Source: Gemmatimonadales bacterium
GTDB lineage: Bacteria; Gemmatimonadota; Gemmatimonadetes; Gemmatimonadales; GWC2-71-9
Assembly (NCBI GenBank): GCA_037189525.1
Contig: JBBCJC010000003.1
Location: 384,001 to 448,000, forward strand
DNA length: 64,000 nucleotides
Direction: 5' to 3'
Made by a program: the position numbers and the translations under genes
Shown here: positions 55,997-63,471 of the stretch, piece after piece
Position numbering within the stretch: position 1 is the first letter of the stretch
Layout: the number at the start of each line of letters is the position of its first letter
The notes under the pieces: model-generated
Database searches by the model: none
Told to the model about the DNA's origin: nothing
What the model saw: only the letters and a program-made list of their open reading frames with translations

Positions 55997-58900
55997 ATGG
56001 CGCGGTCCAGTGGAGAAATGCCGTTCCTCGATCATCTCGAGGAACTCCGATCGCGATTGCTCAAGGCGGTTCTCGCCCTGGTCATCGCGATCGGTATCGG
56101 CATATGGGTAGTCGACCATTTTCAGCTGGTCGACATCCTGCAGCGCCCCATCCTTCCCCTGCTCGAGGGACGCCATCTCGTCATTCAGAGCCCGACCGAG
56201 CAGTTCATGATCCTGCTCAAACTTGGCTTCATCGTCGGGCTGGTGCTCGCGTCTCCCGTCATCATCTGGCAAATCTGGGCCTTCCTGTCGCCGGCCCTCT
56301 ACTCGCGTGAAAAAAAGGCCATCGTTCCGGCCCTGTTCGTCGGCGTGGCGCTCTTCATCACCGGGGCCACCCTGAGCTTTATCTACATCGTGCCCCAGGC
56401 TCTGCGCGTGCTGCTCGGCATGGGGCCTGGCACCTTCGAGATGCTGATCACCTGGCGTTCCTACTTTGCCTTCGTGATGCAGGTGGTGCTGGCGATGGGG
56501 CTCTCGGCCGAGTTACCGCTGCTCATCATCATGCTGGCGGTGCTCGGCGTGGTCACACCGTCGATGCTGGGCCGGTTCCGGCGCTTTGCGATCGTGCTCT
56601 CCTTTGCCGGCGGGGCCATCCTGTCACCGGGTGGGGATGTCTTCTCGATGGTGCTGATGACGGCGCCGTTGATCGTGCTGTACGAGGTCGGCTATCTCGG
56701 AGCCTGGATCGTTCACAAGCGGCGGACCCGGGCGGCGGCCGCCGCGGCGTCGGCCGCGATGTTCGTCTGGTTCCTCCTGCCGGCGCCGTTGGAAGCGCAG
56801 CAACCGCCTCCACCTCCGCCCCGACAGGCCCAGGACACTACCCGGCGGCAGGCAGGCGACTCGGCCGCCGCCAAGCGCATGGGACTCCCGTCGGCGCCGA
56901 AGCGGTCGTTTCCGGCGGCGGATTCGCTGTTGCTCGACCTGCAGGAACTCGAGGGATACGAGATTACCCGGTACCGGGCGGACACGGCGCAGGTCAGCCC
57001 GCGGGACAAGGCGGTTCAGCTGGGCGGCAACGCGATGACCGAGCGCACCGACGCAGTGCTCGAGGCGGATCGCATCTTCTACCGCGAGGGCGATTGCCGT
57101 TTCGAGGCGCAGGGCGAGCCGCATCTCTTCCAGCAGGGTACCGTGGTGGTCGGTCGCACCGTGTTGTACAACACCTGTATCGAGCGCGGACTGGTACAGG
57201 ACGGCCGGACCAGCTTCCCGCAACAGGGAGCCAACTGGATCGTCAGCGGTCACATCGCGATGGACTCGACCGCCAGGCGCGTCTTTGCCAGCGCGCGCGA
57301 AATCACCAGCTGCGATCTGCCCGATTCGCACTATCACTTCCGATCCAAGGAACTGCGCTGGGTCGGAGGCTCGACCATGGTGGCGCGTCCAGCCGTGCTC
57401 TACATCCGCGATGTGCCGATTGCCTGGGTGCCGTTTCTCTTTCAGGACACCAAGCGGGGCCGTCGCTCGGGGATTCTGATTCCCGAACTCGGCTTCAACG
57501 ATATCGTGCGCCCGAGTCGCAACTACAACCGCACGGTGAAGAACCTCGGATACTATTGGGCGGCGAGCGAAAAGGTTGACCTACTCGCCCGCTTCGACTG
57601 GTACTCGAATCGGTACATCGAGTTCGGTGTCGAAGGGCAGTATCGCTGGATCGATCAGTTCATGCGCGGCGCGGTGAGCTTTTCCCGGGCGCAGGAAATC
57701 GGCGGCTCGACCAACACGCGTGTCGTCTGGAATCACAACCAGACCTTCAGTGTCACGACCAAACTGAACGTCAGTCTCGACTACTCGACCAACTCGTCGA
57801 TCATCCGGCGGAACTCGATCGATCCGCGGATGACCACCCAGCAGATCCGAAGTTCCGCCAACCTGAATCGCCAGTTCAGTTGGGGCAACATGGCACTCGG
57901 TGGTACCCGAACACAGAATGTCACGGACGGCAGCGGCCGGATGACGGCGCCCAGCCTAACGCTGTCGCCCAAGCCGATCGACTTCGGCTCGGCGGTAACC
58001 TGGTCGCCGGACATCAATTTCACCAACGACCTCGCCTTCAAGCAGCCGATGCCGTCGGTGCTCGTGCCGCGGGGACCCGGCGGAATCGTCGATACGCTGG
58101 CAGTAACCGGCGGGAGCCGATTGAGCCGGTTCAGTATGAACACGCCGCTCCGCATCGGCAGCTTTCAGTGGACCAACAGCGTCAGTCTGATCGACAGCGA
58201 CTCGACCGGGCTTCGTGAGGAACTGATCACGGTTCCGAATGAGAGTACAGAAGACCCGACCGACTCGGTCACCATCCGCCGGGTGCGCTCCGGTGGGTAC
58301 GGCAGCGAGTTCGATTGGAACACCGGGATCAACTTGCCGATTCTCTTCCGCACCTCGTGGAAGATCACGCCGACGCTGGGGATCACCAACACGACGTCTC
58401 AGGCGCCGTTCGCGGTGCGCAATGCGCGCACGGCGGGCGAGTACGTCCGCCAGGGCAAACGGTTCCAGTTCGGTCTGTCGGCCGCGCCGACGTTCTACGG
58501 ATTTTTCCCGGGCATCGGGCCGTTGGACCGAATTCGTCACACCGTGTCGCCGTCGATCAGCTACAACTATAGCCCGGCGGCGGACATCCCGATCGAGTTT
58601 GCCCGCGCCATCACGCCGGTCGGGCAGCCGCTGGTGCTGCGCAGCATCCCGACCCAGTCGATCAGCCTGACGCTGAACCAGAATTTCGAGGCCAAGACCA
58701 AGCGGCCGGCGGGTGACACGACCGATACGCGCGTCCGGAAGATCCGCCTGCTGAGCATCAGCACCAGCGGTCTCGCCTACGATCTCGAGAAGGCCAAGTT
58801 GCCGGGCCGGACCGGCTGGTCGTCGCCGACGCTGAGCAACTCGATCATGAGCGATCTGGTGCCGGGGCTCAACCTGTCGATGACGCACGATCTCTTTGCC

Positions 58901-59530
58901 GGGGCGTTCGATCCCGCGACGGGCCGGGTAGGGGCGTTCGACAGCAGCACCGCGCGATTCAGCCCGTATCTGTCGGGGGTGACCGCCAGCTTCTCGCTGA
59001 CCGACGGCACTTTCCGGTCGATCGGTCGCTTGCTTGGCTTGGTTTCGGACGACGATCCGCCGGAGCAGCAGCAGCGCCAGGCGTCCGTTCCCGGGGCGCC
59101 CACCACGGTGCCCGGGCAACCGCAGCAGCAGTTCGGCATGATGGATGACATGCGGCGGGGGACGGGCTTTACCAGCAACCAAAACTTCGTGCGCGGACAG
59201 CGGGGCTTCAACGCCAGCGTCAACTACACCTTGAACCGGACTCGTCCGATTCCGGGGGTGGCGGAGGTGCCGAGCCGCAGCAATCTGTCGCTCAACACGA
59301 GCTTTGCGCCGACGCAGTTCTGGCAGGTGAGTTGGAACACGCAGTACGACGTGACCAATCGGACCTTCGAGGCGCAGCAGGTCAATCTGACCCGCGATCT
59401 CCACGACTGGCGGGCCACCTTCTCGTTCCTCCGGTCGCCCAACGGGAACTTCTCGTTCTCGTTCCTGATCACCCTGATCGACCTGCCCGATCTCAAGTTC
59501 GACTACCGCCAGAGCTCGATTCAGCCCTGA
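55997..59530 (+). CDS. tatC: TatC fused to LptD-like LPS-assembly outer membrane protein
   Basis: aa 1-240: MPFLDHLEELRSRL, QIWAFLSPALYSREK, ELPL, LYEVG (TatC). aa ~268-1177: TSCD..HYHF, ARPAVLYIRDVP, RRSGILIP, amphipathic beta strands and RDLHDW (LptD-like). No stop codon between them. Confidence 0.88.
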   Translation: MARSSGEMPFLDHLEELRSRLLKAVLALVIAIGIGIWVVDHFQLVDILQRPILPLLEGRHLVIQSPTEQFMILLKLGFIVGLVLASPVIIWQIWAFLSPALYSREKKAIVPALFVGVALFITGATLSFIYIVPQALRVLLGMGPGTFEMLITWRSYFAFVMQVVLAMGLSAELPLLIIMLAVLGVVTPSMLGRFRRFAIVLSFAGGAILSPGGDVFSMVLMTAPLIVLYEVGYLGAWIVHKRRTRAAAAAASAAMFVWFLLPAPLEAQQPPPPPPRQAQDTTRRQAGDSAAAKRMGLPSAPKRSFPAADSLLLDLQELEGYEITRYRADTAQVSPRDKAVQLGGNAMTERTDAVLEADRIFYREGDCRFEAQGEPHLFQQGTVVVGRTVLYNTCIERGLVQDGRTSFPQQGANWIVSGHIAMDSTARRVFASAREITSCDLPDSHYHFRSKELRWVGGSTMVARPAVLYIRDVPIAWVPFLFQDTKRGRRSGILIPELGFNDIVRPSRNYNRTVKNLGYYWAASEKVDLLARFDWYSNRYIEFGVEGQYRWIDQFMRGAVSFSRAQEIGGSTNTRVVWNHNQTFSVTTKLNVSLDYSTNSSIIRRNSIDPRMTTQQIRSSANLNRQFSWGNMALGGTRTQNVTDGSGRMTAPSLTLSPKPIDFGSAVTWSPDINFTNDLAFKQPMPSVLVPRGPGGIVDTLAVTGGSRLSRFSMNTPLRIGSFQWTNSVSLIDSDSTGLREELITVPNESTEDPTDSVTIRRVRSGGYGSEFDWNTGINLPILFRTSWKITPTLGITNTTSQAPFAVRNARTAGEYVRQGKRFQFGLSAAPTFYGFFPGIGPLDRIRHTVSPSISYNYSPAADIPIEFARAITPVGQPLVLRSIPTQSISLTLNQNFEAKTKRPAGDTTDTRVRKIRLLSISTSGLAYDLEKAKLPGRTGWSSPTLSNSIMSDLVPGLNLSMTHDLFAGAFDPATGRVGAFDSSTARFSPYLSGVTASFSLTDGTFRSIGRLLGLVSDDDPPEQQQRQASVPGAPTTVPGQPQQQFGMMDDMRRGTGFTSNQNFVRGQRGFNASVNYTLNRTRPIPGVAEVPSRSNLSLNTSFAPTQFWQVSWNTQYDVTNRTFEAQQVNLTRDLHDWRATFSFLRSPNGNFSFSFLITLIDLPDLKFDYRQSSIQP

Positions 59531-62918: not shown

Positions 62919-63203
62919 ATGGCAGGAGGAGGTGCGCGCGGCCCCCGTCGGCCCAGATTCTACGCTGCGGTACTCACCACCGGGTTCATGCTGGGTGGAT
63001 TCCTGCAGGGTTTTCTGTCGAAGTTCCTGCCCGACAGCCCCGCCAAGGACGTCTTTACCAGCGCGTGGCGTGGCGAATTCGGACCTGTCAAAGTAGATCT
63101 CATGGTTGTAGACTTTACCCTGGGACCGCTCGGCGTCGAGGTATCCGTGCTGAGTCTGTTCGGGGTCCTGATCGCGTACATGATTGCGCGATCGCTCTTT
63201 TAG
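62919..63203 (+). CDS. small membrane protein (DUF4321-like)
   Basis: GGAGG RBS; two hydrophobic segments around a [10 protein letters not shown] hairpin. Confidence 0.7.
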
Positions 63204-63216
63204 TAGGAGCCCTGGT

Positions 63217-63471
63217 ATGATCGGGAATCTGGGTTTTGGCGAGATTCTGGTCCTCGCCGTCATCGTACTGCTCGTGTTCGGCGCGAAGCGCCTGCCGGAA
63301 ATTGGCCAGTCGCTCGGCAAGGGTATTCGGGAGTTCAAGAAGAGCTTCTCGGAAATCGGCGACAACGTGACCAGCGGTCTGAACGAGCCGCCGTCATCCA
63401 ATGCGCGCCAGATCGACTCGGCGCACTCCCAGGCCCCCACTTCGAGCGAGCCGAAGCGGCTGTCGCAGTAA
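63217..63471 (+). CDS. tatA: twin-arginine translocase TatA/TatE
   Basis: [42 protein letters not shown]. Confidence 0.95.

What the first reader, a model, noticed from the sequence alone, without database searches (positions are those of the whole stretch)
55997..59530. TatC-LptD polyprotein joined by an internal signal peptide
Seen: one uninterrupted 1177-aa ORF contains a full TatC (aa ~1-240) followed by an LptD-like beta-jellyroll/barrel protein. The junction (56717-56800) reads KRRTR-AAAAAASAAMFVWFLL-PAPLEA|QQPPPP. That is a basic n-region, hydrophobic h-region and Pro/L-E-A c-region followed by Gln, matching the signal-peptide ends (A|Q) of other exported proteins here. I see no RBS plus start codon just ahead of it. 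Established: TatC is a 6-TM inner-membrane protein with a cytoplasmic C-terminus, while LptD is an outer-membrane barrel, so an uncleaved fusion is topologically awkward. Inference: the linker acts as a 7th TM that signal peptidase I cleaves after Ala267, releasing LptD and fixing TatC:LptD synthesis at 1:1. Alternatives are an uncleaved trans-envelope tether, or the RR pair engaging TatC in cis.
Basis: partly seen in the sequence, partly recalled or inferred. Interest (0 to 1): 0.9.

Follow-up and report, generated by a model that had tools for sequence, protein, structure and literature searches.

The report
TatC-LptD polyprotein with internal signal peptide
In a large family of uncultured Gemmatimonadales bacteria, an inner-membrane export protein (TatC) and the outer-membrane lipopolysaccharide inserter (LptD) are encoded as one long protein joined by LptD's own retained export signal, so the cell most likely makes one chain and cuts it into two ordinary proteins.

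Summary
Confirmed. One 1177-aa ORF holds the genome's only TatC (aa 12-224) and only LptD_2-type protein, joined by a basic/hydrophobic/L-E-A|Q segment. It is not an assembly error: 18 of 20 genus genomes and 52 of 64 family genomes are fused.

Elsewhere in the phylum tatC and lptD are adjacent, mostly with a 4-nt overlap, and LptD has its own signal peptide. The linker is that peptide, with TatC's basic tail as n-region. It varies freely, yet small-x-Ala|Gln persists (114 of 121 proteins; control 66 of 415). It is the best signal-peptidase site in 119 of 121.

An LptD tree gives about five fusions and three re-splits. That argues against an essential tether and against fusion creating 1:1 control. 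No Tat motif and no conserved internal start were found. Most likely signal peptidase I cleaves after Ala267 (0.85; not shown experimentally).

The same genome has two more conserved fusions with such a site, FliO-FliP and VWA-TPR (BatB/BatC-like). Ten literature searches found no description; the precedent is Bradyrhizobium FbcH (recalled). This scan reported the same fusion before in at least six other genomes.

The parts
55997..59530 (+). tatC-lptD fused ORF, 1177 aa, 130.2 kDa
55997..56716 (+). TatC, aa 1-240, six transmembrane helices; only TatC found in the genome
56717..56731 (+). basic cluster aa 241-245: TatC cytoplasmic tail serving as the signal n-region
   Evidence: all 48 unfused TatC tails carry at least 3 K/R here
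56732..56779 (+). hydrophobic h-region aa 246-261; variable among relatives, low AlphaFold confidence
56780..56800 (+). c-region aa 262-267 ending Leu-Glu-Ala, then Gln268; predicted signal peptidase I cut between 56797 and 56798
   Evidence: Ala267 87%, Gln268 97% conserved in 111 aligned proteins
56798..59527 (+). predicted mature LptD_2-type protein, 910 aa: Pro-rich linker, beta-jellyroll, beta-barrel; only PF19838 gene found in the genome
51489..55981 (+). upstream tolQ/tolR-like, TonB_C, tolB-like (PD40), pal (OmpA), cpoB-like (TPR/YfiO) genes, ending 15 nt before the tatC start
   Evidence: tolQ/tolR named from sequence and order only, not scanned
63184..63471 (+). tatA (PF02416), the only TatA/B/E-family match in the genome

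Best explanation
A gene fusion that is undone after translation. The ribosome inserts TatC's six helices co-translationally (established for polytopic inner-membrane proteins). TatC's basic cytoplasmic tail and LptD's inherited hydrophobic core then act as an internal Sec signal, so the LptD chain passes into the periplasm. Signal peptidase I cuts after Ala267. TatC stays in the inner membrane with one extra helix (about 29 kDa). LptD (910 aa, new N-terminal Gln, perhaps capped as pyroglutamate) goes on to the outer membrane like any LptD. Shown here: the fusion, its spread, its origin from an overlapping tatC-lptD pair, and selective retention of the cleavage motif. Inferred: topology, cleavage, capping. 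The fusion is probably close to neutral; it arises easily because only a stop/start overlap separates the genes.
For: (1) Motif retention. Taking simply the first Gln after the most hydrophobic 11-mer, 114 of 121 fused proteins, 43 of 46 fused loci and 44 of 46 unfused LptD signal peptides have A/G/S at -1 and a small or aliphatic residue at -3; later Gln residues pass in 66 of 415. A second, non-overlapping set gives 107 of 119, and the 12 misses show such a site at the next Gln. (2) A matrix trained on 246 N-terminal signal-peptide-like sequences of this genome scores Gln268 at 17.1 bits (22nd percentile of the training set; next best site -4.2), and the best site of the whole protein is the linker Gln in 119 of 121. 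(3) The h-region is variable (mean top-residue frequency 0.47, TatC 0.77) while Ala267 is 0.87 and Gln268 0.97. (4) Gln at +1 is the local rule: 238 of 888 candidate sites in signal-like N-termini against 3.1% background, and a glutaminyl cyclase gene is present. Gln cyclisation needs a freed N-terminus (PMC5837995, PMC10653852, abstracts). (5) Re-split relatives use the same segment as an ordinary N-terminal signal peptide (G002, G009, G135, G034/G081/G305). (6) Two signal peptidase I genes are present. An engineered signal peptidase I site after the third helix of a polytopic protein was used to release AmiA in E. coli (PMC5449189, figure legends).
Against: No protein-level evidence. SignalP and DeepTMHMM were not available, and the matrix is home-made and trained on sites chosen for A|Q, so it favours Gln sites. 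The motif could persist partly by inheritance, although the surrounding columns have turned over. This genome's own linker is Ala-rich and scores in the lower quartile. PF05096-type cyclase was found in only 12 of 61 phylum genomes, so it does not by itself explain phylum-wide Gln. LptE was not found by PF04390, so the LPS-insertion role rests on family and fold. Relatives are not independent samples.
Confidence: 0.85

Rival explanations
1. Uncleaved trans-envelope tether: the linker is a permanent seventh helix and holds LptD in the outer membrane above TatC.
For: The mature Pro-rich linker (median 37 residues from Gln to the conserved GLP motif) plus the jellyroll is not obviously too short to cross a periplasm, so length does not exclude it. 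The fusion is kept across most of a family.
Against: An uncleaved helix gives no reason to keep small-x-Ala|Gln. The linker did not lengthen on fusion (median 37 fused, 32-41 in five split family members). The link was lost in three nested lineages and in four genomes where lptD directly follows cpoB. AlphaFold gives pLDDT under 50 for aa 248-287 and pTM 0.56.
Confidence: 0.04
2. Internal initiation: LptD is made mainly from a start codon inside the fused ORF, and the read-through product is minor or degraded.
For: 28 of 46 fused loci have an in-frame GTG/ATG/TTG that would give a 15-45-aa signal peptide with a basic residue. Strong Shine-Dalgarno motifs are not evident at the split starts either, so lack of an RBS is weak evidence.
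Against: 18 of 46 loci, this genome included, have none; positions scatter from 27 to 45 codons; only 4 have ATG. GTG is 37% of Val codons in that zone against 52% in the rest of tatC, so it is not enriched. TatC would still be made as the long chain, being the only copy.
Confidence: 0.05
3. Tat export in cis: the RR pair binds its own TatC and the Tat system moves the LptD part.
For: RR is present in 112 of 121 fused proteins just after helix 6, and TatA is encoded nearby. Dual Sec-Tat membrane proteins with an internal RR motif exist (PMC5449189, abstract and passages).
Against: [ST]RRxF occurs in 0 of 121, and the looser RRx[FGAVML][LITMVF] in 0 of 46 fused loci. RR is equally present in 43 of 48 unfused TatC tails. 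Tat moves folded proteins, whereas beta-barrels cross the inner membrane unfolded (established knowledge).
Confidence: 0.02
4. Cleaved, but selected: the fusion gives LptD co-translational targeting, or the leftover helix has a role in the TatA-TatC translocase.
For: The fusion arose about five times and dominates one family. No SecB was found and only one TatA/B-family gene. In the main family the linker is compact (median 22 residues from last K/R to Gln).
Against: Three reversions and four losses of tatC from the site; unfused forms dominate the rest of the phylum (2 of 31 fused in f2, 0 of 41 in f4-f12); the h-region is not conserved as a docking surface would be. SecB was found in only 4 of 14 control genomes, so its absence says little.
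Confidence: 0.15

Closest known systems
Bradyrhizobium japonicum FbcH cytochrome b-c1 precursor (Thony-Meyer, James, Hennecke 1991, PMID 1647023; only its title was seen, in a reference list; content recalled)
   Same: One gene gives a polytopic inner-membrane protein, an internal signal sequence and an exported protein; processing yields two proteins.
   Different: There both products are subunits of one inner-membrane complex. Here they belong to unrelated machines in different membranes, and the second is a 910-aa outer-membrane barrel. Cleavage was shown there (recalled), not here.
Separate, translationally coupled tatC-lptD pair of other Gemmatimonadota
   Same: Same genes, same order, same signal peptide ending small-x-Ala|Gln, same basic TatC tail.
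   Different: Stop and start overlap (4 nt in 38 of 48 split loci) instead of read-through.
FliO-FliP fusion of Buchnera sp. APS; FliP signal peptide cleaved between residues 21 and 22 in Salmonella (PMC2947984, passages)
   Same: An upstream inner-membrane protein with a cytoplasmic C-terminus is fused to a protein that normally has a cleavable signal peptide. This genome has such a fusion too, with a retained Ala|Gln site.
   Different: FliO and FliP work together. The passages seen do not say whether the Buchnera fusion is cleaved.
Bacteroidetes Q-rule (PMC5837995 passages; PMC10653852 abstract)
   Same: Gln directly after signal peptidase I sites; glutaminyl cyclase gene present.
   Different: Described as specific to Bacteroidetes; 'Gemmatimona' does not occur in the main text of PMC5837995 (its supplements were not read). 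Pyroglutamate was not shown here.

Membership tests
TatC | Full-length family match over curated cut-off | tested here: met
   PF00902 1-208/208; TIGR00945 187.6 > 132.7
TatC | Six-helix fold and conserved residues shared with solved TatC | tested here: met
   Foldseek TM to target 0.83, rmsd 3.0 to 4b4a; H13, E16, F96, E105, E172, E230 invariant and D214 in at least 90% of 111 proteins, aligned to the same residues of 4hts/4b4a
TatC | Exports twin-arginine substrates with TatA | not testable with these tools
   tatA present; activity not assayable
LptD (LptD_2 type) | Family match | tested here: met
   PF19838 130.9 bits, cut-off 22.5. The proteobacterial models are not met: PF04453 no match; NF002997 24 bits against 683
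LptD (LptD_2 type) | N-terminal beta-jellyroll plus large C-terminal barrel | tested here: met
   Model mean pLDDT 79; the 15 best Foldseek ranks shown are all full-length LptD chains, E 1e-25 to 7e-18, TM to target 0.44-0.55, rmsd about 10-13 A
LptD (LptD_2 type) | Partners LptE and LptF/G in the genome | tested here: inconclusive
   LptF/G found; LptE not found with PF04390, which may miss a divergent copy
Sec/signal peptidase I signal peptide | Basic n-region, hydrophobic h-region, small residues at -3 and -1 | tested here: met
Sec/signal peptidase I signal peptide | Lies at the N-terminus of the translated chain | tested here: not met
   Internal at aa 241-267; no suitable start codon in this genome
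Sec/signal peptidase I signal peptide | Cleavage demonstrated | not testable with these tools
   needs proteomics or expression
Tat signal peptide | [ST]-R-R-x-F consensus (recalled) | tested here: not met
   0 of 121 proteins, 0 of 46 loci
FbcH-type signal-peptidase polyprotein | One ORF: polytopic membrane protein, internal signal, exported protein | tested here: met
   (definition recalled)
FbcH-type signal-peptidase polyprotein | Both products are subunits of one complex | tested here: inconclusive
   No known TatC-LptD complex (established knowledge); no confident interdomain packing in the model; repeated splitting

The most novel reading that the evidence does not exclude
Gemmatimonadales routinely build envelope proteins as signal-peptidase polyproteins (TatC-LptD, FliO-FliP and a BatB/BatC-like VWA-TPR fusion in this one genome), and the TatC-LptD fusion is selected because TatC acts as a co-translational leader that threads a 910-residue essential barrel straight into the periplasm while leaving a seventh helix on the Tat receptor.
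Probability: 0.15. Interest if true: 0.75.

Novelty: new variant of a known kind. Interest (0 to 1): 0.55.

Why it matters
If cleavage is confirmed, this is a natural bacterial polyprotein whose two products go to different membranes. It shows that a large outer-membrane barrel can be exported from an internal signal behind six transmembrane helices. It extends the one recalled precedent (FbcH) to a fusion held by most of a family and gained about five times. In practice, databases label these 1170-aa proteins only as TatC, so LptD may look absent in such genomes, and N-terminal signal predictors miss the site. The fused, split and re-split series is a ready natural experiment on how operon overlaps turn into fusions and back. 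The mechanism itself uses ordinary parts.

Tried and rejected
Assembly artefact: rejected. Internal start: no conserved codon. Tat motif: absent. Linker length as a test of the tether: not informative; the minimum values printed (15 and 7) come from motif mis-matches, so only medians are used. AlphaFold did not place the extra helix with confidence, which is not evidence either way for docking. No RNA holder was listed. LptE (PF04390), proteobacterial LptD (PF04453) and SecB (PF02556) were not found with those models. Literature: ten full-text searches; those aimed at a TatC-LptD or Gemmatimonadota TatC fusion listed 9, 4 and 3 papers, none about it by title or abstract start. Most subscription journals are not in the library, so absence from print is not proven. 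The FbcH papers could not be read. No supplements were read; the Q-value tables of PMC5837995 may include Gemmatimonadota. G026 was dropped from the signal statistics because its lptD start could not be placed (apparent frameshift). 16 loci with no or under 450 aa of LptD were left out of the first tree. No complex prediction and no formal tree test were run.
Full report
Observation. The ORF at 55997-59530 is open for 1177 codons. It carries a complete TatC (PF00902 aa 12-224, TIGR00945 above cut-off) and an LptD_2 domain. These are the only TatC and the only PF19838 gene found in a genome that is 98% complete. An AlphaFold model on 111 relatives (mean pLDDT 79, pTM 0.56) shows six TatC helices, a low-confidence stretch at aa 248-287, a beta-jellyroll and a barrel. 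Foldseek ranks LptD chains first and also finds TatC chains. The gene follows a tol-pal-cpoB cluster, and tatA lies 3.7 kb downstream. Source names on the closest proteins say Gemmatimonadales.

Is it real? Yes. In the genus, 22 genomes were searched, 20 matched, 18 read through the junction and 2 (G002, G009) are split. In a phylum draw of 141 genomes, the frame holding TatC was at least 1100 codons in 52 of 64 matching family-f1 genomes, 2 of 31 in f2, 0 of 1 in f3 and 0 of 41 in f4-f12 (counted by me from the table; the unpublished G089, fused, and G352, unfused, are left out of these counts). Of the 12 shorter f1 frames, two read through the junction at a contig end (G036, G123), three are true splits, three have tatC elsewhere, three are long but unchecked, and one is a fragment. 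A protein search found 845 TatC-like proteins of 647-2060 aa; all 120 listed carry PF00902 plus PF19838. A second search from an f2 fusion listed 120 more, 119 with both domains. Contigs from two other studies bridge the junction without gaps.

Origin. In unfused genomes tatC is directly followed by lptD: all nine f4-f12 genomes fetched show the pair, and 38 of 48 split loci overlap by 4 nt. I chose those loci (one per genus, enriched for short frames), so they are not a random sample. Each split LptD starts with a signal peptide that nearly always ends small-x-Ala|Gln, and each split TatC ends in a basic tail. The fused linker is the basic tail joined to that signal peptide. Some fusions still carry the whole acidic tail plus LptD's own arginines (G029, G130); most f1 fusions are compact. 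A FastTree tree of 112 LptD sequences rooted on f10-f12 needs 8 changes: about five fusions (f1; G029/G130 clade; P0151; G076/P0188; P0152) and three re-splits inside f1 (G002+G009; G034+G081+G305; G135). Support for f1 as one clade was 0.97 in the first tree and 0.43 in the second. Parsimony cannot exclude that some f1 splits are ancestral, notably in genus g10, where the fused G205 keeps a long tail. G002 and G009 sit beside fused G018 with support 1.0 inside a fused genus, so at least that reversal is likely. Four more f1 genomes have lptD directly after cpoB and a tatC elsewhere; three show a new start and signal peptide, and in G044 the signal-like segment is present but I did not place its start.

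Is the linker a working cleavage signal? Its h-region has turned over (top-residue frequency 0.47 against 0.77 for TatC), but Ala267 and Gln268 are kept at 0.87 and 0.97. With a blind rule, the first Gln after the hydrophobic core, 114 of 121 fused proteins obey the -3/-1 rule, as do 44 of 46 unfused LptD precursors, against 66 of 415 later Gln residues. A second set gives 107 of 119, and the 12 misses have the motif at the next Gln. A matrix from 246 of this genome's own signal-like N-termini picks Gln268 as the only positive site in the protein (17.1 bits, next -4.2) and the linker Gln in 119 of 121 relatives. Only 12 internal sites in 2905 predicted genes passed the threshold, several of them mis-called starts. 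The gene calls and the training set are heuristic, and the matrix favours Gln by construction. Gln at +1 is typical of this genome (238 of 888 candidate sites against 3.1% background) and a glutaminyl cyclase gene is present. In Bacteroidetes such Gln residues are cyclised after signal peptidase I cleavage and stabilise the protein (PMC5837995, passages; PMC10653852, abstract). If the same holds here, the conserved Gln is a mark of a freed N-terminus. That step is inference, and the PF05096 cyclase was found in only 12 of 61 phylum genomes.

Rivals. Internal initiation: 18 of 46 fused loci, this one included, have no usable ATG/GTG/TTG, and GTG is not enriched (37% of Val codons against 52%). 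Tat in cis: no consensus motif in 121 proteins, and the RR is TatC's usual tail. Uncleaved tether: not excluded by length, but it explains neither the motif nor the repeated loss of the link. The 1:1 idea adds little, since the unfused genes are already coupled by overlap.

Mechanism. Shown: fusion, spread, ancestry, motif retention. Inferred: co-translational insertion of TatC, use of aa 241-267 as an internal Sec signal, cleavage by one of two signal peptidase I enzymes, delivery of LptD to the outer membrane (Omp85-family genes present), and a 29-kDa TatC with a leftover helix. An engineered signal peptidase I site after an internal helix was used to release a periplasmic enzyme in E. coli (PMC5449189, figure legends), so internal cleavage is feasible. 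I put cleavage at 0.85 and selection for the fusion at about 0.15.

Wider pattern. The same scan of this genome found two more fusions with the same design. A FliO-FliP fusion keeps a small-x-small|Gln site in 24 of the 25 loci fetched (read by eye); FliP has a cleaved signal peptide in Salmonella and a fliO-fliP fusion is known in Buchnera (PMC2947984, passages). A VWA-TPR protein in a moxR/batA-like cluster (names recalled) has helix-RRR-hydrophobic-Ala|Gln in 23 of the 24 f1 loci fetched, the other being broken earlier in the gene; several f2 copies show a lipoprotein-like Cys site instead. I did not show unfused orthologues for the second case.

Comparison and novelty. It works like the FbcH precursor of Bradyrhizobium (title seen in a reference list; content recalled), but the products are not subunits of one complex and end in different membranes. 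Ten searches of the held literature found no account of a TatC-LptD fusion. This scan's earlier notes report the same fusion and the same reading in six other genomes, and the Gemmatimonadota Q-rule too; these are unchecked AI notes and are not counted as evidence. They held no match for the FliO-FliP query. Verdict: real, widespread, apparently unpublished, mechanistically ordinary; a new variant of a known kind, interest 0.55.

Noticed in passing
G000:C5:298958-300109 (-), locus L115: FliO-FliP fusion (PF04347 + PF00813) with a conserved internal signal-like segment ending Ala|Gln; 24 of 25 fetched relatives keep the site.
   Followed up: partly
G000:C5:77282-78895 (-), locus L114: VWA-TPR protein (BatB/BatC-like, name recalled) with helix-RRR-hydrophobic-Ala|Gln at aa 345 in 23 f1 loci; several f2 copies have a lipoprotein-like Cys site at the same place, a possible internal signal peptidase II site.
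   Followed up: partly
G000 whole genome; cyclase at C2:1274226-1274924: Bacteroidetes-like Q-rule: 234 of 429 signal-like N-termini have a candidate site followed by Gln; PF05096 glutaminyl cyclase present here but in only 12 of 61 phylum genomes.
   Followed up: partly
L116-L119 (G197, G044, G243, G101): tatC is gone from between cpoB and lptD and another tatC lies elsewhere; G077 and G029 carry both the fusion and a second free tatC.
   Followed up: partly
window 63184-63471: Single TatA/B-family gene, suggesting a minimal TatA-TatC system in a diderm.
   Followed up: no
G000 whole genome: No LptE found with PF04390 although LptD_2 and LptF/G are present.
   Followed up: no
P0127: An 813-aa database protein joins a TatC to an Hsp70-like domain; seen once, possibly a chimeric assembly.
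   Followed up: no
G085:C5:105558-106192; L020 (G026); L174 (G010): Single-genome frameshifts (near the tatC start, in the lptD signal region, in the VWA-TPR gene), probably assembly errors.
   Followed up: no
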